This document shows positions 1 to 35,429 of a stretch of 35,429 nucleotides of DNA, piece by piece. The DNA comes from a virus (taxonomy: Duplodnaviria > Heunggongvirae > Uroviricota > Caudoviricetes), in IMG/VR virus record IMGVR_UViG_2531839330_000011. The stretch is one strand, 5' to 3'. The stretch's first letter is position 1. Every line of letters starts with the position of its first letter. The notes beneath the pieces are model-generated. The model did not search any database. It was not told where the DNA came from and saw nothing but the letters and a program-made list of their open reading frames with translations. The position numbers were made by a program, and so were the translations under genes.

Positions 1-1002
1 TTACCCTCTATTGTCAAAAGGGTTCAATTCAACAGCAGCCTCTAAATGACCTGGAGCAAAATGCGCATAACGCATAGTCATTTTTATATCGCTATGCCCC
101 AGTATTTTTTGCAACACAAGAATATTTCCGCCCCGCATCATAAAATGACTGGCAAACGTGTGACGTAGCACATGAGTTAATTGCCCATCAGGAAGCTCGA
201 TCTTCGCTCTCTTAATTGCAGCGTCAAAAGCCTCATAACATGGTGAAAATAGCGCTCCTCGTTTTTTGGGAAGCATAGCCTGCAATTGAGGTGAAATCGG
301 TACAGTGCGGTTCTTCTTTCCTTTAGTTTTAACAAATGTGATTCGACCGGGCAGTACTTGAGATTGCTTTAATCCTTCTGCTTCACTCCACCGAGCACCA
401 GTCGCAAGCCCAATACGGACAACAACCCCCAAATCTTTATTCCGTGACTCATCACACGCAATCAGAAGGCGTTCAATCTCATCTACATACAGAAACGCCA
501 GTTCCTTTTCTTCCTCACGAAACTTGCGAATACCAGTCAGGGGGTTTTCACCAGACCACTCCCCAAGGCGCTTCAGTTCGGCAAAAACAGCATGTAGATA
601 TGACTGCTCGCGATTAACGGTTGCTTCACTAAGTTTTTTCTTCCCCTTGGGATTCCACTCTCCTGATAACCTTCTTTCCCGATAAGTGGCAAACATATTT
701 TTGTCAAACTGAGAAGCAAATGGATCTCCCAGCCTGGAACAAATCGCCTCAAGTTTGACTTTGCGCTCTGCACCAGAGGACAAGGTTTTACCGTACATCT
801 CAAACCAACGAGCAATCAACTCAGAAAGACGAGGACCAGAACCATCTTGAAACTCGTCTCCAACTCTACTATTCATTAAACGGCGCTCATAAGAGAGCGC
901 CTCACTTTTTGTCGCAAACTGTTTACGAATGCGTTTTCCCGATGCCCCGTAGGGATAACATTCGCAAAGCCATTTACCTGATGGAATCTTACGAACCGAC
1001 AT
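1..1002 (-). CDS. int: Phage integrase, tyrosine recombinase (P2 Int-like), 333 aa
   Basis: C-terminal catalytic region with conserved R...HxxR...Y pattern (LRHTFASH...MTMRYAHF) and size match P2-type integrases. Start codon at 1002, stop at window position 1. Confidence 0.93.
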   Translation of the reverse strand: MSVRKIPSGKWLCECYPYGASGKRIRKQFATKSEALSYERRLMNSRVGDEFQDGSGPRLSELIARWFEMYGKTLSSGAERKVKLEAICSRLGDPFASQFDKNMFATYRERRLSGEWNPKGKKKLSEATVNREQSYLHAVFAELKRLGEWSGENPLTGIRKFREEEKELAFLYVDEIERLLIACDESRNKDLGVVVRIGLATGARWSEAEGLKQSQVLPGRITFVKTKGKKNRTVPISPQLQAMLPKKRGALFSPCYEAFDAAIKRAKIELPDGQLTHVLRHTFASHFMMRGGNILVLQKILGHSDIKMTMRYAHFAPGHLEAAVELNPFDNRG

Positions 1003-1007
1003 TTTAG

Positions 1008-1355
1008 TTACTTATCACATAAATCAAATGCAGCCTTAGTGACATCCCCCAGGCTCTTTTTTAACCCTGGGGCGGCATCATTATCTAGCCAAAATGGATT
1101 ATTGTTATCTAACGGTAACGCACCAAATGTTTTACCTTTTATTCGAGCCAAACCTGTAAGTGCATATAACTTATTATCGTCAAAATTCATCACATAAGGA
1201 TTACCATCAAGACACTGTAATTGAACCTCATCAGTATTAAATGGCCATACCCCATTGAAACTCTCACGTTCAATAGTTTTAAAAGGCATTGCGACGGCGG
1301 AAAAAGAAAACATAGATAAAAAAGTAACTAATAGTTGAACCTTTTTTACTTTCAT
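1008..1355 (-). CDS. Small secreted protein (N-terminal signal peptide, two Cys), unknown function; lysogenic-operon cargo
   Basis: 115 aa. N-terminal hydrophobic signal (MKVKKVQLLVTFLSMFSFSAVA). AT-rich codon usage unlike flanking phage genes. RBS-like GAGGT upstream of the ATG at 1355. Tightly packed between int and the upstream gene. Confidence 0.6.
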   Translation of the reverse strand: MKVKKVQLLVTFLSMFSFSAVAMPFKTIERESFNGVWPFNTDEVQLQCLDGNPYVMNFDDNKLYALTGLARIKGKTFGALPLDNNNPFWLDNDAAPGLKKSLGDVTKAAFDLCDK

Positions 1356-1384
1356 ATCATTACCTCAATTTAGCTCAAGTAAGA

Positions 1385-2035
1385 TTACAAATTAAAAAAC
1401 GCCCTAGAAATGACACCGCCTACCAAAACCCCTACGCAGATAAAGAATATTATTTCTTTTGGATAAAGTCGGATTAATTCTGAAGCACGAAGTCGGACTT
1501 CTGGTAAGGTCGAACTCTCTGTGTGGCTTGATGCCGATTGTTGCTCTAACCACGACAATGCAGACTGTAACTGAGAACGAGTAAGATCGTTTAAACGTCC
1601 TGTACCGAAATTGATATGGCAATACCGCAGAAGTTTTTGTCGAAGTCCACAGTCTTCACTGTTACGTAGTAATAAACTTACAAGAGCCTTACAGGCATCA
1701 TGATCTTTACATCGCTCAAGCATTGCATGCAGAAAACTCTCCGCTGTTTTATATTGATTTACTGTCATATCATCAATACCAGCTACACCAATCTCCGCAT
1801 GTACTTTTTGCCAAATAATAAACGCTTCAGTATTGCTAGCTTCTGCAATAGCAGCAACCAAGCTATTTAGCTCCTTACGCTGAGCCTTAAGCAAAGGGCG
1901 ATCGTCATCATCATTATTCGAAGGGATTGCGATATTGACGGTATGAGAACCATCATATCGCTCTATCTGAATATTCTTTTCGTGAAAATCACGCCCAGCA
2001 ACGCGATTGTTTGAACCGTTTGAGTTGACGGCCAT
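1385..2035 (-). CDS. C-terminally membrane-anchored protein of unknown function; lysogenic-operon cargo
   Basis: 216 aa. Strong AGGGAGG RBS 12 nt after the repressor stop. Single C-terminal hydrophobic helix (IIFFICVGVLVGGVISRAFF). N-terminus carries SNNRVAGRDF, a near-copy of the repressor C-terminal motif GNNRIAGRDY. AT-rich. Confidence 0.65.
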   Translation of the reverse strand: MAVNSNGSNNRVAGRDFHEKNIQIERYDGSHTVNIAIPSNNDDDDRPLLKAQRKELNSLVAAIAEASNTEAFIIWQKVHAEIGVAGIDDMTVNQYKTAESFLHAMLERCKDHDACKALVSLLLRNSEDCGLRQKLLRYCHINFGTGRLNDLTRSQLQSALSWLEQQSASSHTESSTLPEVRLRASELIRLYPKEIIFFICVGVLVGGVISRAFFNL

Positions 2036-2047
2036 GTCACCTCCCTA

Positions 2048-2455
2048 CTATCCCCTACCCTTAGTTTCGTTATAGTCACGACCAGCGATACGGTTATTAC
2101 CACCAGAAATATTTAACTCACGTCCTGATGGCTGAGTTTCCTTTTCACTGATCGCACCTTTTAAAGCCCCAATCACCGCGTTTTTCACATCTAACGAAGC
2201 TGCTCGAAAGCGAGTAATCAACTCCTGCTCATCATCGTTATAAGTTTCAGGTGAGTGAATTCCCAACACAACATACTGAACATCAAGGCCAAAACGAGAC
2301 AGCGCTGCCAAATACGCAGCATCAGGAAAGCTATCTCCTTTCTCATATCTAAGCTGAGTTAGCTTTTTGACTCCACCAATGTCGCTCATGGCAACTTGAC
2401 TAAGTCCCAATCTTTCCCTTTCCTCACGCAACCGCTGACCAATATCATTTTTCAT
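2048..2455 (-). CDS. Prophage repressor, XRE/Cro-C1 type helix-turn-helix (CI/C-like immunity repressor)
   Basis: N-terminal HTH (IGQRLREERERLGLSQVAMSDIGGVKKLTQLRYEKG). Divergent from cox-like genes. Start taken at the internal Met (ATG 2455) because the longer ORF would overlap the divergent gene start. Confidence 0.8.
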   Translation of the reverse strand: MKNDIGQRLREERERLGLSQVAMSDIGGVKKLTQLRYEKGDSFPDAAYLAALSRFGLDVQYVVLGIHSPETYNDDEQELITRFRAASLDVKNAVIGALKGAISEKETQPSGRELNISGGNNRIAGRDYNETKGRG

Positions 2456-2465
2456 ACAAAAAACC

Positions 2466-2531
2466 TTGACAGGTATCTTTTTTGATACCAAAATGATTTC
2501 ACGAGCTATTAGATGATCACAATATACCACT
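2466..2531 (+). promoter_or_regulatory. Lysis-lysogeny switch region: TTGACA -35 hexamer (2466..2471) immediately followed by perfect palindrome GGTATC-N6-GATACC (2472..2489), a candidate operator and early rightward promoter
   Basis: Read directly from the sequence. Sits in the 76-bp divergent interval between the repressor and the first rightward gene. Confidence 0.5.
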
Positions 2532-2738
2532 ATGAAACAAGTTCTTCACGATACCAGATCACGCATTCCGCGTAACCCCGCCACAGGTCCAAGACTGGCA
2601 CTTCGGCTGTCCCTCGAGGAGCGAGCCGTCATTGATGAAATGGCAGCTAAAGAACAACGCTCATCCTCTAACATGGCGCGCATGATCTTCCTTCGCGGCC
2701 TAGAGCTAACCCAGAAAGAACAAAACAAATCTTCCTGA
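2532..2738 (+). CDS. Small ribbon-helix-helix-like DNA-binding protein (Cro/Apl-like early regulator candidate)
   Basis: 68 aa. Segment RLALRLSLEERAVIDEMAAKEQRSSSNMARMIF resembles RHH/MobC-type motifs. First gene divergent from the repressor. Confidence 0.5.
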   Translation: MKQVLHDTRSRIPRNPATGPRLALRLSLEERAVIDEMAAKEQRSSSNMARMIFLRGLELTQKEQNKSS

Positions 2739-2754
2739 TCAGGAGGCTAGTGGG

Positions 2755-2958
2755 ATGTCAGGTATAACCATCAATATCAATGTGAATGCCCCCTATGTAT
2801 CCCTGCAGAAATATGCAGAGATAACAGGTATCCCTCTTAATACATGCAAAAAGATGTTGGCTGACGGTCGAATTATTATCCGCCCCAAACGCGCCAAAAT
2901 GGAAAAGCCTGAAGTAAACCTTGTGGCGATGTTAAAAGACGCTTTGGCTAACAGCTAA
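2755..2958 (+). CDS. cox: Cox/excisionase-like HTH protein
   Basis: 67 aa. APYVSLQKYAEITGIPLNTCKKMLADGRIIIRP resembles the P2 Cox HTH region (IPYQEFAKLIGKSTGAVRRMIDKGKLPVI, recalled from memory). Position matches P2 cox. Confidence 0.6.
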   Translation: MSGITININVNAPYVSLQKYAEITGIPLNTCKKMLADGRIIIRPKRAKMEKPEVNLVAMLKDALANS

Positions 2959-2979
2959 AACAATGAACAGAGCACCATC

Positions 2980-3330
2980 ATGAAAAAAAACGCTAATAAT
3001 CCATACTCCAAATTTCGTAATAGCGTAGAACGCCATGTACACCACGTCGCTACCAGTGCATCACGTAGTAACAGTCGCTATAACCTGAACGAGACGCACG
3101 CAACACCGGATGGCCACGCTGTAAAACAAATCGGCGAGCATGCCTGGCTGATTGAGAAAGCTGGAATCGTGGTCCACAAATGCCCACGCAATCCGTTTAC
3201 CGGAAACCGCATTTTTGCATTGAACTGCGGCGACAATCACTTCGGGCAGGATTTCACATTATACGAAGCACTTCGCACGGTTGATCGTCTGCTTCGCGGG
3301 CAAAGTTTTATTAAACAGGCTGATTTATAA
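2980..3330 (+). CDS. Hypothetical early protein
   Basis: 116-aa ORF in the early rightward operon. No recognisable motif. Confidence 0.45.
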   Translation: MKKNANNPYSKFRNSVERHVHHVATSASRSNSRYNLNETHATPDGHAVKQIGEHAWLIEKAGIVVHKCPRNPFTGNRIFALNCGDNHFGQDFTLYEALRTVDRLLRGQSFIKQADL

Positions 3331-5289: not shown

Positions 5290-5600
5290 ATGCACACACA
5301 AAAAAACCGCTTGCCATGCCTCAATCGGTCAGGTTACATTTCCGCTGCAGCTCATAAAACGGGTGCCGGGATTCTCAACCCGATACAGAGCAAAGCGCAT
5401 AACCGCGCAAGCGGTTTTTTTGTGCGTACTGTATTGCCACGTCTTTTTCGCGTCAGAATTATGGCGGGGCGTACGGGGCCGACTTCGGTCGGGCCGGATT
5501 CTTTGCTCTCCGGTGTTGAGAACCCTGTACGTCTCGCCACCCCGAGATTCTCAACTCTGGATGGTGAGTTATTTCTATCACCGAGCAAAGAGGCCACACC
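5290..5600 (+). other. Highly structured non-coding segment (candidate ncRNA or terminator/regulatory element)
   Basis: 15-bp perfect inverted repeat AAAAAAACCGCTTGC (5300..5314) / GCAAGCGGTTTTTTT (5407..5421). Local hairpin CCGC-GCAA-GCGG followed by T7. Hairpin GGCCGAC-TTCG-GTCGGGCC near 5478..5497. Repeated ATTCTCAAC motifs at about 5380 and 5548 with an inverted copy near 5514. ORFs called across this interval lack protein-like composition. Confidence 0.35.
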
Positions 5601-5831
5601 ATGGCAGACCGCAAACAGCACCGCACTATCGCGGAGCGTCGTCACATCCAGACTGAAATCAACCACAGACTTTCCCGCGCATCACGCGTCGCGCAAATCA
5701 TGCACATCAATATGCTGCATGAGCGCAGCCACGCACTATCAAACATTTATTCCGCCTCTGTTTTCAGCTATCTGGCGGATGATCTGCACGAGCTTCAACA
5801 GCTCATCCAGCAGCAAAACAAACTCCATTAA
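5601..5831 (+). CDS. Hypothetical small basic protein
   Basis: 76-aa ORF with AGAGG RBS 8 nt upstream. Confidence 0.5.
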   Translation: MADRKQHRTIAERRHIQTEINHRLSRASRVAQIMHINMLHERSHALSNIYSASVFSYLADDLHELQQLIQQQNKLH

Positions 5832-5903
5832 TTCCTGTTCCGGGCCTTTCCTGCACCTTGCGGCGGGAGGCCTTCGCACATCTGTAACAAGAGGATTGCC
5901 GCA

Positions 5904-9174: not shown

Positions 9175-10134
9175 ATGAAAATTTGTATCGACGACGGCTC
9201 CACCAACATCAAGCTGGCATGGACTGAGAACGGCGAACGCCGCAACGCCATCAGCCCGAACAGCTTCAAGTCGGAATGGTCTGCGCCGTTCGGTGGCACG
9301 CAGCCCGCGAACTACATGCTTGATGGCGTGCGCTATGGTTTTGATCCGGTCAGCGATCGCTTTGTCCAGACGACCGACACGCAATACCAGTACAGCGATG
9401 TGAATGTAATCGCCATTCACCACGCGCTGGTCAAATCAGGCATCACACCACAGGAAGTGGATGTGGTTGTCACCCTGCCACTGAGCGAATATTTCGACAC
9501 AAACGCACAGCCGGACATGGCCAACATCAACCGCAAAAAAGCGAACGTCATGCGCCCGGTGGAGTACCAGAACGGCGAAGCATTCACTATCCGTAACGTA
9601 CGGGTTATGCCTGAATCCATTCCGGCTGGCTTTAAGGCACTGGCTGACATGAGTCCGTTTGAATCCCTGCTGATTGTGGATTTGGGCGGAACCACGCTGG
9701 ATGTGGCAAAGGTTCAGGGGCAACTGGCAGGTATCAGCCAGGTGTTTTGCGATCCACACGTAGGCGTTTCTCTTATGGCAGATGCCGTACTGTCGGTGAT
9801 GGCCACTAACGGTATGCGCACCAGTCACCACATCGCCAATACCATTATCGAACATCGCCATAATGAAGCATGGCTGCGCCAGCACATCCACAATGACGCG
9901 CATTACGCCAGCCTGATGGCGGTTATTCGTGAAAAGGAAGAAACACTGAAACAACGCGTGATCCGCGCGCTGGCGGTTTTTTCGGGTTACGGGCGGGTGA
10001 TGGTTGTCGGTGGCGGGGCGGAGATTGTGGCACCCGCTATCCGCGAAGCCTGCGGAGTTAATGCGACTTTCATCGCGGACGGGGTGCCACAGTTTGCTCT
10101 GGTTAATGGGCTGTACGCAATGGACAAGGAGTAA
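9175..10134 (+). CDS. parM: ParM/StbA-like actin-type ATPase (type II plasmid partition motor homologue), 319 aa
   Basis: Extensive collinear similarity to plasmid R1 ParM as recalled: IDDGSTNIKL, ISPNSFK, QYSDVNV-A-HHAL, NINRKKAN, VMPESIPAG, DLGGTTLD, GGGAE, LVNG. AAGGA RBS before the ATG at 9175. Confidence 0.85.
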   Translation: MKICIDDGSTNIKLAWTENGERRNAISPNSFKSEWSAPFGGTQPANYMLDGVRYGFDPVSDRFVQTTDTQYQYSDVNVIAIHHALVKSGITPQEVDVVVTLPLSEYFDTNAQPDMANINRKKANVMRPVEYQNGEAFTIRNVRVMPESIPAGFKALADMSPFESLLIVDLGGTTLDVAKVQGQLAGISQVFCDPHVGVSLMADAVLSVMATNGMRTSHHIANTIIEHRHNEAWLRQHIHNDAHYASLMAVIREKEETLKQRVIRALAVFSGYGRVMVVGGGAEIVAPAIREACGVNATFIADGVPQFALVNGLYAMDKE

Positions 10135-32824: not shown

Positions 32825-33085
32825 ATGTTCCGTTGTCCGCTTTGTGGCGCATCTGCCCGTATCCGCACCAGTCGTCCGGAAAATGATTCAAACACCGTGC
32901 GGCAAAAGTATTACCAGTGTAACAACCTGGAATGCGGCGTATGCTTCTCAACACTGGAAGCTTTCCATAAATTCACATCGAAACACGCCTCCGGCGTTCA
33001 CTCATCAGAAGGTATCCCGTGGCATGAGCTGCCAGCTTCACACAGGGGAAACAATCAGATGAGTTTGCCTTTACCTCAGAATTAA
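32825..33085 (+). CDS. ogr: Ogr/Delta-type zinc-finger late transcription activator
   Basis: MFRCPLCGASARIRTSRP...YYQCNNLECGVCF is a Cys4 zinc finger of the P2 Ogr family. Terminal position in the prophage, as in P2. Confidence 0.85.
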   Translation: MFRCPLCGASARIRTSRPENDSNTVRQKYYQCNNLECGVCFSTLEAFHKFTSKHASGVHSSEGIPWHELPASHRGNNQMSLPLPQN

Positions 33086-33604: not shown

Positions 33605-33886
33605 TTACTCAGCATTCTCCTGCTTCCATTGCCGGATCATTTCATCGGTAACATCACTTTCATAACATACCACGTCATCCCCTCCAGTACGGCTATATGC
33701 ACTGCGTCCACCACATCTACTACCATTCCTTGCATGATTATACGGACACGCACAATTGCCTGGATAAGATTCAATGGATTCTTTAATTATTTCTTTCTTG
33801 ATCTGAGCATCTGACTTTCCTGTTGCTGCATACCCACTAAAAGATACCAAACAAAGGCAGATTGCCATTAATAAACCACATCGCAT
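33605..33886 (-). CDS. Small secreted Cys-rich protein of unknown function
   Basis: Start trimmed to the internal Met that opens a signal peptide (MRCGLLMAICLCLVSFSGYAA). Mature part has four Cys (CACPY...RCGG...VCY). Strongly AT-rich. Confidence 0.45.
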   Translation of the reverse strand: MRCGLLMAICLCLVSFSGYAATGKSDAQIKKEIIKESIESYPGNCACPYNHARNGSRCGGRSAYSRTGGDDVVCYESDVTDEMIRQWKQENAE

Positions 33887-34120
33887 ACCGATACACTCTA
33901 TTACTAACCAATCATAGCCCACATCATAAAATCGAGATGAGGAGTACAACACCTTTAACAAGAAGGTGCCATCACGATAATATGCCGTGCAATTCATCAA
34001 AAAAAAGATCTATATCAAAGAGATAGAGTTATTATCAGTGCTGCAGACATCAGCATTCGAGGCAGCAGAAAGACAGTAAATCTAACGAATTTGTCTTTTT
34101 CTCAGGATGTTGTCAGATTA

Positions 34121-34426: not shown

Positions 34427-34513
34427 TGGTACCCGGAGCGGGACTTGAACCCGCACAGCGCGAACGCCGAGGGATTTTAAATCCCTTGTGTCTACCGATT
34501 CCACCATCCGGGC
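34427..34513 (-). tRNA. leuZ: tRNA-Leu (anticodon UAA)
   Basis: Reverse complement GCCCGGATGGTGGAATCGGTAGACACAAGGGATTTAAAATCCCTCGGCG...GGGTACCA matches E. coli leuZ as recalled, with long variable arm and encoded CCA. Confidence 0.93.
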
Positions 34514-34525
34514 TCGGGAAGAAAG

Positions 34526-34599
34526 TGGAGGCGCGTTCCGGAGTCGAACCGGACTAGACGGATTTGCAATCCGCTACATAACCGCTTTGTTAACGCGCC
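34526..34599 (-). tRNA. cysT: tRNA-Cys (anticodon GCA)
   Basis: Reverse complement GGCGCGTTAACAAAGCGGTTATGTAGCGGATTGCAAATCCGTCTAGTCCGGTTCGACTCCGGAACGCGCCTCCA matches E. coli cysT as recalled. Confidence 0.93.
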
Positions 34600-34653
34600 A
34601 AATTCTTCAGGCCTTTCAGCCAGACATCCGCTTGAGGCCGATGTCTTTTAAAC

Positions 34654-34729
<76 letters not shown>

Positions 34730-34880
34730 ATTCATCAAGCAATCAGTTAATCACTTGATTTTATTATCGTCTGGCAATCAGTGCCGCCGTTCGATGCGTT
34801 GCATTCTACTTACCTGGCGCGATGAGTCAACGATATTTTTCACCACTTTTGATCGTTTGCTGAAAATTACGCCGAAACGA

Positions 34881-35429
34881 TCACTGATCAAGCAAATCTG
34901 CACGCGCAGCGCTCAAATATTGCAACATTGACCACAGAGTCAGTACCGCAGCCACAAAGAAAAGTGCAATACCGGCGTACTCAACCCAAATGTTCGGACG
35001 CCACAGCAGCCAGGCCAACGCCACCATCTGGGCAGTGGTTTTCACTTTCCCAATCCAGGAGACAGCCACGCTACTGCGTTTACCCAACTCCGCCATCCAT
35101 TCGCGTAGCGCAGAAATAATAATTTCACGGGCGATCATCGTTGCCGCCGGTAAGGTCACCCACCAGCTGTGATAATGCTCGGTTACCAGCACCATGGCGA
35201 TAGCCACGAGAACTTTATCTGCGACAGGGTCAAGGAAAGCACCAAACCGGGTACTCTGGTTCCAGCGGCGTGCCAGAAAACCATCGAACCAGTCAGTCAC
35301 CGCCGCGACGCAGAAAATGAGCGCGGCGGCAAACGGCGACCAGGTGACAGGCAGATAAAAGACCAATACAAAGAATGGGATAAGGATGACACGGAACAGT
35401 GTAAGCAACGTAGGGATATTAAATTGCAT
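34881..35429 (-). CDS. pgsA: CDP-diacylglycerol--glycerol-3-phosphate 3-phosphatidyltransferase (host housekeeping gene)
   Basis: 182-aa multi-TM protein with the CDP-alcohol phosphotransferase motif ([10 protein letters not shown]...[10 protein letters not shown]). Gene order pgsA-glyW-cysT-leuZ is the E. coli arrangement. Start codon at the last bases of the window. Confidence 0.9.

What the first reader, a model, noticed from the sequence alone, without database searches (positions are those of the whole stretch)
1008..2035. Two-gene cargo inserted in the lysogenic operon between the repressor and int
In P2 the immunity repressor and int are adjacent and co-transcribed in the lysogen. Here two AT-rich genes sit between them on the same strand with tight spacing and strong RBSs: a 216-aa protein with a single C-terminal membrane anchor and a 115-aa signal-peptide protein. 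Genes expressed with the repressor in the lysogen are classically superinfection-exclusion, abortive-infection or lysogenic-conversion functions (lambda rexAB and P22 sieB are precedents). A cytoplasmic sensor tethered to the membrane plus a periplasmic partner fits that pattern. I recognise neither protein family, so this is a candidate for an undescribed prophage-encoded defence or exclusion module.
Basis: partly seen in the sequence, partly recalled or inferred. Interest (0 to 1): 0.7.

Follow-up and report, generated by a model that had tools for sequence, protein, structure and literature searches.

The report
Prophage repressor with matched membrane partner
The two genes between the repressor and the integrase are real, but they are not a pair: the first encodes a membrane-anchored protein whose start copies the repressor's tail, an uncharacterised repressor-partner cassette found in many prophages, and the second is a swappable periplasmic passenger gene.

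Summary
Two AT-poor-GC, tightly spaced minus-strand genes lie between the HTH repressor (2048-2455) and int (1-1002) of a P88-like (P2 family) E. coli prophage. The closest sequenced relatives have the repressor directly next to int.

The 115-aa protein is a DUF2511/YebY periplasmic protein. The 216-aa protein is an Flk_N-domain, tail-anchored protein.

They are not a co-functional pair. In every related locus examined, the Flk_N gene follows the repressor. The slot before int is variable: DUF2511, BRCT proteins, K139-orf2 homologues, DUF8087, membrane proteins, or nothing.

The main finding is a matched motif. The repressor's C-terminal tail (NISGGNNRIAGRDYNE) and the partner's N-terminus (NSNGSNNRVAGRDFHE) share a ~16-aa motif. 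In 120 IMG/VR loci this motif occurs almost only as such tail/head pairs. The heads sit on three or more unrelated classes of membrane proteins. Other motif versions match within each locus in Mu-like prophages, and a tail-less repressor has no such partner.

Most likely this is a repressor/membrane-partner cassette coupled through motif-motif contact, with DUF2511 as a separate passenger gene. Function is untested. I found no description of it.

The parts
2048..2455 (-). XRE-type HTH immunity repressor, 135 aa: HTH domain (residues 1-65), two helices (74-106), then a tail predicted to be disordered
   Evidence: Pfam HTH_31/HTH_3 and PHROG repressor families. AlphaFold2 gives pLDDT above 80 for residues 1-100 and 45-49 for 105-135. 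232 homologues found in Enterobacterales, Gilliamella and Pseudomonas.
2066..2113 (-). Repressor C-terminal 'tail' motif NISGGNNRIAGRDYNE (residues 115-130)
   Evidence: Conserved in 49 of the 120 listed repressor homologues, even though their HTH halves have diverged. 74 tail occurrences in IMG/VR loci, and 72 of them have a head partner downstream.
1385..2035 (-). 216-aa tail-anchored membrane partner of the repressor (head motif, Flk_N domain and C-terminal TM helix)
   Evidence: phrog_5825 E 4e-103. NCBIfam Flk E 8.6e-16 over residues 37-166. PF27202 Flk_N is recorded for its homologues. It lies directly downstream of the repressor in every related locus examined; Erwinia has DUF2511 in between.
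1979..2026 (-). N-terminal 'head' motif NSNGSNNRVAGRDFHE (residues 4-19), matching the repressor tail
   Evidence: Local BLOSUM62 score tail versus head is 62, against a shuffle mean of 20.7 (sd 4.3, 0 of 5000 shuffles reach it). The next best of the window's 153 ORFs scores 33. These are the only two motif copies in the window. Of 10 identical residues only 4 use identical codons.
1511..1897 (-). Flk_N helical bundle (residues 47-175)
1391..1462 (-). C-terminal transmembrane anchor (residues 192-215)
   Evidence: Kyte-Doolittle 19-mer mean 2.36 at residues 195-213. AlphaFold2 helix 192-215.
1008..1355 (-). 115-aa DUF2511/YebY-family periplasmic protein, occupying a variable cargo slot
   Evidence: Pfam PF10709 at 28.4 bits (cut-off 21) and phrog_2950 E 9e-40. 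PDB 7n0j YebY E 0.003, with Cys48 and Cys113 aligned. Other prophages carry different cargo in this slot.
1290..1355 (-). Signal peptide of the DUF2511 protein (residues 1-22, predicted cleavage AVA|MP)
   Evidence: Hydrophobic h-region at residues 6-24. YebY is experimentally periplasmic and carries a Cys48-Cys113 disulfide (PMC8689200).
1..1002 (-). Tyrosine integrase, last gene of the putative lysogenic operon
   Evidence: Pfam Int_N plus Phage_integrase. 67-95% identical integrases close the cassette in all related P2-like loci.
2532..2958 (+). Divergent early genes: an Arc-like 68-aa ORF (2532-2738) and a Cox-like 67-aa DNA-binding protein (2755-2958)
   Evidence: Annotation of phage 520873 and of RefSeq E. 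coli genomes. A promoter-like site lies at 2466-2494 on the plus strand.

Best explanation
The region holds two separate things.

(1) The 216-aa gene is the membrane-anchored partner in a two-gene immunity cassette. The cassette is an HTH repressor with a conserved C-terminal tail motif, followed by a membrane protein that begins with the same motif. I propose that the two disordered motifs contact each other directly, by beta-strand pairing or co-assembly. A fraction of the repressor would then be tethered to, or controlled from, the inner membrane. That would tune how much active repressor is available for immunity, for the stability of lysogeny, or for induction in response to a membrane-side signal. 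The Flk_N bundle would be the exchangeable input or scaffold domain. Other cassettes use a zinc ribbon plus two TM helices in its place.

(2) The 115-aa gene is an independent passenger gene in a variable slot between the cassette and int. It encodes a disulfide-bonded periplasmic YebY-fold protein. Its likely role is lysogenic conversion or exclusion at the envelope, for example binding a small ligand or peptide as proposed for MlbQ.

Shown: gene order, family assignments, motif pairing, its positional rule, its distribution, matching of motif versions within loci, and slot variability.

Inferred: physical contact between the motifs, membrane tethering of the repressor, and any phenotype.
For: Linkage. 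The repressor is followed by the Flk_N protein, with int further downstream, in every related locus examined: Klebsiella, E. coli, Serratia, Citrobacter, Rosenbergiella, Mixta, Izhakiella, Enterobacter, Kosakonia, Buttiauxella, Yersinia and Hafnia. Erwinia is the one variant, with the DUF2511 gene between the repressor and the Flk_N gene.

Motif match in the window. The score is 62 against a shuffle mean of 20.7 (0 of 5000 shuffles reach it), with protein-level rather than DNA-level conservation.

Positional rule. An IMG/VR scan for NR[VIM]AGRD[FY]xE returned 120 loci. 72 of 74 tail hits have a head partner within 400 nt downstream, and 84 of 88 head hits have a tail partner upstream.

Independence from Flk_N. 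Among 57 unique head proteins, 37 are Flk_N class, 16 are zinc-ribbon class and 4 are other. All 57 have a hydrophobic TM-like segment. A Pinirhizobacter locus pairs a tailed HTH protein with a zinc-ribbon, two-TM protein.

Co-variation of motif versions. Mu-like prophages of Pectobacterium, Gilliamella and Pseudomonas, and a Ralstonia P2-like phage, carry different motif versions. In each, the tail matches its own head. The tail-versus-head score matrix is highest on or near the diagonal.

Presence and absence. A tail-less repressor in a related P2-like prophage has no head-motif partner. P88 and PhiR44_2 have neither.

Structure. Both motifs are predicted to be disordered in the monomer, at pLDDT 45-60. 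This fits a motif that folds on binding.

Cargo slot. The contents are DUF2511, BRCT, a K139-orf2 homologue (33% identity, E 3e-51), DUF8087, membrane or XhlA-like proteins, or nothing.
Against: - No interaction was tested.
- Within the canonical motif version, within-locus identity barely exceeds shuffled pairs (0.549 against 0.527), and shared ancestry could explain that difference. The near-invariance of G..NRxAGRD[YF]xE would equally fit a common third-party binding site.
- The Gilliamella diagonal score is weak (31 against up to 30 off the diagonal).
- In Ralstonia phage YO077_2 the two genes are convergent and the Flk_N-like ORF lacks a TM helix.
- The prophage also carries an epsilon-like derepression gene preceded by isrK and C4 RNA matches. 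Its O157 relative Sp13 is mitomycin-inducible. Induction therefore does not obviously need the membrane partner.
- Every DUF2511 copy of this subfamily that I checked (six other loci) sits beside an Flk_N gene, so a functional link cannot be fully excluded.
Confidence: 0.5

Rival explanations
1. The 216-aa and 115-aa proteins act together as one prophage defence or superinfection-exclusion module, with a membrane-tethered cytoplasmic sensor and a periplasmic partner.
For: - Both genes lie in the putative lysogenic operon.
- All checked members of this DUF2511 subfamily (six other loci) lie next to an Flk_N gene.
- K139 has cI-orf2-glo-int, with Glo annotated as a periplasmic exclusion protein.
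Against: - Among the 18 distinct P2-like loci compared, only 6 carry DUF2511. The rest carry unrelated cargo or none.
- The order is reversed in Erwinia.
- The constant partner of the 216-aa protein is the repressor, through a shared motif.
- PADLOC finds nothing for either protein.
- Neither protein shows sequence similarity to K139 Orf2 or Glo.
Confidence: 0.1
2. The matched motifs are an amyloid-like, prion-type signalling device, as in HET-s/NWD2, bacterial Bell/NLR pairs and E. coli Bab/Agp. Assembly of the membrane protein's head templates the repressor tail. This either inactivates the repressor (induction) or, in the reverse direction, activates the membrane protein as an abortive-infection effector.
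For: - The genomic signature is the same one used to discover BASS motifs: a motif at the C-terminus of one product and the N-terminus of the adjacent, collinear gene's product, with tiny intergenic gaps.
- E. coli Bab/Agp is a prophage-borne example.
- The motif versions are rich in G, N and Q with alternating V, I or F, and they match within loci.
- The motifs are predicted to be disordered in monomers.
Against: - The conserved core is only about 16-17 residues and carries invariant R, D and E.
- Neither partner is a Bell/HeLo or NLR-type protein.
- Amyloid propensity and foci formation were not tested.
- A repressor that aggregates heritably would be risky for a lysogen.
Confidence: 0.17
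3. The motif is a docking site for a third factor, such as a host protease or adaptor, or an anti-repressor like the epsilon-like derepression protein. The membrane protein would be a co-expressed decoy or competitor that buffers the repressor against that factor, comparable to lambda CIII protecting CII from FtsH.
For: - The core residues G..NRxAGRD[YF]xE are almost invariant across very different phages and hosts, with little locus-specific co-variation within that motif version.
- An epsilon-like derepression gene is present in this prophage lineage.
- Regulation of a repressor through its tail has a precedent in Mu repressor and ClpXP (my own knowledge, not checked here).
Against: - Distinct motif versions exist in related hosts, and each tail tracks its own head. 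That is unexpected for one conserved host target.
- Mu-like carriers of the cassette showed no annotated epsilon-like gene in the flanks examined.
Confidence: 0.15
4. The 216-aa protein works like chromosomal Flk. It binds the flagellar export gate (FlhA) and alters type III secretion or motility in the lysogen, as a form of lysogenic conversion unrelated to the repressor.
For: - The Flk_N domain shows homology to Flk.
- Flk is a tail-anchored protein that interacts with the cytoplasmic domain of FlhA in two-hybrid assays (PMC13344023).
Against: - The NCBIfam score is 58, far below the Flk equivalog cut-off of 353.
- The protein lacks Flk's C-terminal two-thirds.
- The cassette is abundant in Klebsiella pneumoniae (one protein cluster on 754 contigs), which is non-flagellate (my own knowledge).
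- The Flk_N domain is replaced by a zinc ribbon in other cassettes that keep the head motif.
Confidence: 0.06

Closest known systems
Vibrio phage K139 lysogenic operon (cI-orf2-glo-int)
   Same: K139 is a P2-family phage with two extra genes between the repressor and int, transcribed from PL. One of them, Glo, is annotated as a periplasmic protein involved in phage exclusion. A full-length homologue of K139 Orf2 (33% identity, E 3e-51) occupies the same variable slot in Enterobacter and Kosakonia cassettes.
   Different: The window's two proteins show no sequence similarity to Orf2 or Glo. K139 cI is a 215-aa protein without the tail motif, and K139 has no head-motif partner.
Flk (Fluke/RflH), flagellar secretion-switch inhibitor of Salmonella and E. 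coli
   Same: It shares a homologous N-terminal helical domain (Flk_N) and the same topology: a cytoplasmic domain with a single C-terminal membrane anchor.
   Different: The window protein is 216 aa rather than 333 aa. Its NCBIfam score is 58 against a cut-off of 353. It is prophage-borne, and it carries an N-terminal head motif that chromosomal Flk proteins lack (they begin MQP.SG..). It is always paired with a repressor.
YebY (E. coli AZY operon; PDB 7n0j) and MlbQ (DUF2511)
   Same: Same Pfam family, a signal peptide, and two conserved cysteines that form a disulfide in YebY. The YebY paper already notes family members encoded between a XerD-like recombinase and a phage CI-type HTH protein in Enterobacteriaceae.
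   Different: It is not in a yobA-yebZ-yebY copper operon. Similarity to YebY is low (E 0.003). It belongs to a small prophage-specific subfamily of 18 clusters. Its function is unknown.
Amyloid signalling gene pairs (HET-s/NWD2; Bell-BASS/NLR; E. coli Bab/Agp)
   Same: A short motif is shared by the C-terminus of one protein and the N-terminus of the product of the adjacent collinear gene. Intergenic gaps are very short, several motif families exist, and they match within pairs.
   Different: The partners here are an HTH repressor and small membrane proteins, not a pore-forming Bell/HeLo domain and an NLR or large sensor. The conserved core is shorter and charged. Amyloid behaviour is untested.
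Genes co-expressed with repressors: lambda rexAB, P22 sieB, and D3112 Tip or DMS3 Aqs1 in Mu-like Pseudomonas phages
   Same: All sit in the repressor operon of a prophage and include a membrane component. The Mu-like cassettes found here lie at the same place, next to the repressor. The precedents themselves are from my own knowledge and were not checked here.
   Different: No homology was detected (PADLOC). None of those systems is known to share a terminal motif with its repressor.

Membership tests
DUF2511 / YebY (PF10709) | Match to the family profile above the curated threshold | tested here: met
   28.4 bits against a cut-off of 21, covering residues 28-113 and the full profile. RefSeq annotates the gene as a DUF2511 domain-containing protein.
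DUF2511 / YebY (PF10709) | Extracytoplasmic location with two conserved disulfide-forming cysteines | tested here: met
   Signal-like N-terminus. Cys48 and Cys113 align with the YebY cysteines in 7n0j, which form the Cys48-Cys113 disulfide according to PMC8689200.
DUF2511 / YebY (PF10709) | yobA-yebZ-yebY (copper) operon context | tested here: not met
   The gene is flanked by the Flk_N gene and a phage integrase. This context defines only the AZY subgroup, not the Pfam family.
Flk (NCBIfam PRK10715 equivalog) | Full-length match above the equivalog cut-off | tested here: not met
   58.1 bits against a cut-off of 353. Only profile positions 20-149 of 339 are matched.
Flk_N domain proteins (PF27202) | Flk_N domain followed by a C-terminal membrane anchor | tested here: met
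   PF27202 is recorded for homologues at 60-98% identity. The TM helix spans residues 192-215. The local Pfam copy lacks this model, so the window protein itself was matched only through NCBIfam and PHROGs.
Flk (functional) | Controls FlgM/late-substrate secretion; binds the cytoplasmic domain of FlhA | not testable with these tools
   This needs genetics or two-hybrid assays. The cassette's abundance in Klebsiella pneumoniae argues against a flagellar role.
Amyloid signalling motif pairs (BASS/HRAM type) | Same motif at the C-terminus of one protein and the N-terminus of the adjacent gene's product, collinear and closely spaced | tested here: met
   72 of 74 tails and 84 of 88 heads are paired. 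Gaps between the two genes range from 2 to 18 nt in most loci, and 9 nt is the most common. Motif versions match within loci.
Amyloid signalling motif pairs (BASS/HRAM type) | Partners are a Bell/HeLo-type executioner and an NLR-like or large sensor protein | tested here: not met
   The partners are an XRE-type HTH repressor and membrane proteins of 115-256 aa.
Amyloid signalling motif pairs (BASS/HRAM type) | The motif forms amyloid or transmissible aggregates | not testable with these tools
   The only available data are monomer AlphaFold2 models, which show low-confidence, unstructured motifs.
Known anti-phage defence systems (PADLOC-DB 2.0) | Profile match to a component of a described or candidate system | tested here: not met
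   No hit for either protein at E up to 1. The repressor gives only weak HTH-level hits.
K139 orf2/glo exclusion cassette | Position between the repressor and int in a P2-like lysogenic operon | tested here: met
K139 orf2/glo exclusion cassette | Sequence homology to Orf2 or Glo | tested here: not met
   BLASTP E values of 0.24 and 7.5.

The most novel reading that the evidence does not exclude
The matched tail and head motifs are a self-templating, prion-like or beta-zipper signalling link between a membrane-anchored sensor and a prophage repressor. Events at the inner membrane, such as incoming phage DNA, envelope damage or the state of a secretion machine, would switch the repressor off. 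In the reverse direction, a disturbed repressor would trigger a membrane effector. This would be a new way of controlling lysogeny or abortive infection. It is carried by about 9% of complete E. coli genomes, including O157:H7, and by P2-like and Mu-like prophages across Gammaproteobacteria.
Probability: 0.2. Interest if true: 0.9.

Novelty: new variant of a known kind. Interest (0 to 1): 0.62.

Why it matters
How non-SOS repressors of P2-like and Mu-like prophages are regulated is poorly understood. One example is the unexplained mitomycin induction of Sp13 in E. coli O157, whose repressor lacks a peptidase motif (PMC2669165).

A repressor hard-wired to a membrane protein through a shared terminal motif gives a concrete, testable handle on this question. 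It would link the lysis-lysogeny switch to the cell envelope.

The cassette is common. The 216-aa gene is present in 525 of 5426 complete E. coli genomes, and one Klebsiella protein cluster is found on 754 contigs. It is nearly absent from about 50,000 deposited phage genomes, so it has escaped study.

The same analysis shows that the slot just upstream of int is a passenger-gene hotspot shared with Vibrio phage K139. That makes it a place to look for exclusion or conversion genes. The method itself, comparing C-termini of regulators with N-termini of downstream products, could be applied genome-wide.

Tried and rejected
- **PADLOC on both proteins:** nothing found.
- **PDB profile search with the Flk_N alignment:** nothing below E 0.1.
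- **Homology to K139 Orf2 and Glo:** rejected.
- **Stop-codon read-through giving a repressor-membrane fusion:** the two ORFs are in the same frame in the window. The gaps elsewhere are 8, 11, 13 and 17 nt, so this was rejected.
- **A DNA-level repeat or recombination artefact as the cause of the motif match:** rejected. Only 29 of 48 nt are identical, and 4 of the 10 conserved residues share a codon.
- **The search for related loci with the divergent alignment A1:** failed, with no conserved stretch to search on. The closer alignment A2 gave only 15 loci.
- **tblastn of the Pseudomonas Flk_N-type partner and a zinc-ribbon partner against deposited phages:** no match.
- **Locus-specific co-variation within the canonical motif version:** the excess was tiny (0.549 against 0.527) and probably reflects shared ancestry, so I did not rely on it.
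- **Literature searches for a described repressor/membrane-partner system or for an amyloid motif on a repressor:** nothing relevant.
Full report
**1. Observation**

The window is a complete P2-family prophage of E. coli, of the P88-like genus Xuanwuvirus. It runs from int at the left end to host tRNA genes and pgsA at the right end. On the minus strand lie four genes:
- int, 1-1002;
- a 115-aa ORF, 1008-1355;
- a 216-aa ORF, 1385-2035;
- an XRE-type HTH repressor, 2048-2455.

The gaps between them are 5, 29 and 12 nt. GGGAGG and GAGG Shine-Dalgarno sequences precede the two middle genes. GC content is 0.356 and 0.413, against 0.525 for the whole window. No terminator-like site lies on the minus strand in 1-3000.

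P88 and PhiR44_2 are about 96% identical to the window from position 3028 onward, and both have the C repressor directly next to int. One qualification: the whole int-repressor-cox block is a different allele here, not a simple two-gene insertion.

**2. What the two proteins are**

The 115-aa protein is a member of DUF2511/YebY:
- Pfam gives 28.4 bits against a cut-off of 21, and phrog_2950 gives E 9e-40.
- It aligns to the YebY crystal structure 7n0j with both disulfide cysteines conserved.
- It has a signal peptide.

YebY is periplasmic and structurally resembles the lantibiotic-binding protein MlbQ. The YebY paper already remarks that some family members are encoded between a XerD-like recombinase and a phage CI-type HTH protein in Enterobacteriaceae (PMC8689200).

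The 216-aa protein has three parts:
- an N-terminal segment of about 45 residues modelled with low confidence;
- a confidently modelled helical bundle, residues 47-175, pLDDT 94-98;
- a C-terminal TM helix.

**3. Comparative genomics splits the 'pair'**

I examined homologues of the 216-aa protein in these genera: Klebsiella, other E. coli, Serratia, Citrobacter, Erwinia, Rosenbergiella, Mixta, Izhakiella, Enterobacter, Kosakonia, Buttiauxella, Yersinia and Hafnia. In every locus the gene sits just downstream of a homologous repressor, with int further downstream.

The stretch between it and int varies. The cargoes seen were:
- DUF2511 (6 of the 18 distinct loci compared);
- a 288-aa BRCT protein;
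- a 291-aa full-length homologue of K139 Orf2 (33% identity, E 3e-51);
- DUF8087 acidic proteins;
- membrane proteins of about 243 aa;
- signal-peptide proteins;
- XhlA-like proteins;
- nothing at all.

Erwinia places DUF2511 before the Flk_N gene and adds another gene. So the 216-aa gene is a fixed part of this immunity module, and the 115-aa gene is one of many alternative passengers.

In E. coli, the DUF2511 gene is in 507 and the 216-aa gene in 525 of 5426 complete genomes. These include O157:H7, where the module heads the truncated P2-like prophage next to yecA. That placement fits Sp13.

**4. The matched terminal motif**

The repressor ends ...ELNISGGNNRIAGRDYNETKGRG. The 216-aa protein begins MAVNSNGSNNRVAGRDFHEKN....
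- The local alignment score is 62, against 20.7 +/- 4.3 for shuffles (0 of 5000 reach it).
- No other ORF product in the window scores above 33.
- The motif occurs only twice in the six-frame translation.
- Of the 10 identical residues, only 4 share a codon. Conservation is therefore at the protein level.

The same tail and head are conserved in all related loci, although the HTH halves have diverged to 35-60% identity.

I scanned IMG/VR for DNA encoding NR[VIM]AGRD[FY]xE.
- 74 hits lie within 12 residues of a C-terminus, and 72 of these have a head-type motif within 400 nt downstream.
- 88 hits lie about 7-12 residues from an N-terminus, and 84 of these have a tail-type motif upstream. The exceptions include hits at locus ends.
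- Among the 57 unique head proteins, 37 are Flk_N class, 16 have a CxxC...CxxC zinc ribbon followed by two TM helices, and 4 are other.
- All 57 have a TM-like hydrophobic segment.

A Pinirhizobacter locus pairs a 215-aa HTH protein ending ...GDGNRVAGRDFHEGSGDKKK with a zinc-ribbon, two-TM protein starting MNIHSNGDNNRFAGRDYHEH. The constant features are therefore: repressor tail, the same motif at the head of the next protein, and a membrane anchor.

**5. Motif versions co-vary**

Some repressor homologues lack the canonical tail and carry other G/N/Q-rich tails. In their loci the next gene is again an Flk_N, tail-anchored protein, and its head matches the local tail:

| Locus | Repressor tail | Partner head |
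|---|---|---|
| Pectobacterium (Mu-like prophage) | QIFNGDISGQFAGNQIIN | QEFNGTAQGQFSSRDIIN |
| Gilliamella (Mu-like prophage) | GQIAGGNIY | QIAGRDIY |
| Pseudomonas aeruginosa (Mu-like prophage) | QQFNGPVGTVTSGDVVN | QQFHDRVHQVAAGDIKN |
| Ralstonia P2-like phage | GGSNNVQIGSV | GNGNVQIGKV |

In the Ralstonia phage the genes are convergent and the Flk_N-like ORF has no TM helix.

In a tail-by-head score matrix, canonical pairs score 52-67 with each other and 13-30 with the other versions. The Pectobacterium tail scores 50 with its own head and at most 25 elsewhere. The Pseudomonas tail scores 39 with its own head and 38 with the related Pectobacterium head. The Gilliamella diagonal is weak, at 31.

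As a control, a tail-less repressor in a related P2-like prophage is followed by genes without a head motif.

Within the canonical version alone, locus-specific co-variation is negligible.

**6. Structure predictions**

AlphaFold2 models both motif regions with low confidence and no secondary structure: partner residues 1-45 at pLDDT 51-60, and repressor residues 105-135 at pLDDT 45-49. This is what one expects of short motifs that fold only on binding or assembly. It does not discriminate between the models. A paired model could not be run.

**7. Mechanism**

The best-supported reading is a two-component immunity cassette. The repressor tail and the partner's head contact each other, which ties part of the repressor pool to the inner membrane or places it under control from there. 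The cytoplasmic domain (Flk_N, a zinc ribbon or another fold) would be an exchangeable input or scaffold.

The following steps are shown: linkage, the positional rule, membrane anchoring, matching of motif versions, and correlated presence and absence. The following are inferred: the contact itself and its consequences.

The rivals are:
- an amyloid-like templating device, because the genomic signature is the same as for BASS pairs and E. coli Bab/Agp;
- a shared docking site for a protease or anti-repressor, with the membrane protein as a decoy, which is favoured by the near-invariant core and the epsilon-like derepression gene;
- an Flk-like effect on flagellar secretion, which is disfavoured by the cassette's abundance in Klebsiella pneumoniae and by domain replacement;

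The DUF2511 protein most likely acts alone in the periplasm, in conversion or exclusion. K139 Glo is its positional analogue.

**8. Novelty**

The family memberships are known, and the prophage context of DUF2511 has been noted before. Genes between the repressor and int in a P2-like phage also have a precedent in K139.

I could not find any description of the repressor/membrane-partner cassette with matched terminal motifs, of its spread across P2-like and Mu-like prophages, or of its motif versions. Among about 50,000 deposited phage genomes, only the prophage-derived record 520873 carries it, apart from weak Ralstonia hits.

I rate it a new variant of a known kind, namely motif-coupled adjacent gene pairs or repressor regulators. 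There is a minority chance that it represents something categorically new.

Noticed in passing
window 5347-5832 (+): Rfam gathering-level matches to isrK (5347-5421) and C4 antisense RNA (5457-5544) lie just upstream of a 76-aa ORF (5602-5832). RefSeq names this ORF 'derepression protein' in O157:H7, and it resembles P4 epsilon. This looks like an RNA-controlled anti-repressor unit of the P1 immI type inside a P2-like phage. It may explain the mitomycin inducibility reported for Sp13.
   Followed up: partly
window 33605-34000 (-): A 131-aa ORF with a hydrophobic, signal-like or lipoprotein-like N-terminal region lies between the ogr-like zinc-finger gene (32825-33085) and the host tRNA genes. 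It could be a second passenger-gene slot at the other prophage end.
   Followed up: no
window 34430-35429 (-): Three tRNA genes and pgsA mark the host flank. With yecA next to int in E. coli genomes, the window spans the whole prophage. In Klebsiella and other genera, the related int lies next to pgsA-uvrC instead.
   Followed up: partly
L028 5663-6538; L005 5647-6513; L022 (K139) 2194-3099: The variable slot before int holds a full-length homologue of K139 Orf2 (33% identity, E 3e-51) in Enterobacter and Kosakonia, and a BRCT-domain protein in Klebsiella. The L028 protein also partly matches the candidate defence protein PDC-S48 (E 1e-8). The slot appears to be a hotspot shared between Vibrio and enterobacterial P2-like phages.
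   Followed up: partly
L168 (Ralstonia phage YO077_2) 1399-2935: The repressor tail and the head of an Flk_N-like ORF share a fifth motif version (G..NVQIG.V). Here the genes are convergent, the Flk_N-like ORF lacks a TM helix, and a zinc-ribbon-TM ORF without the head motif follows the repressor.
   Followed up: partly
L001 (phage 520873, NC_049344) 1039-3065: In the only deposited phage record with this module, int is annotated as two fragments. Each of the two middle genes appears as three tblastn pieces. These are frameshifts, caused either by decay or by sequencing errors.
   Followed up: no
window 2036-2050 (-): The repressor and the 216-aa ORF are in the same reading frame, separated by two stop codons and three codons. 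The phase is not conserved in other loci, so read-through fusion is unlikely.
   Followed up: yes
window 9175-10134 (+): A ParM-like plasmid segregation gene follows the replication endonuclease gene, as annotated in P88-like relatives. This is unusual for an integrating P2-like phage.
   Followed up: no
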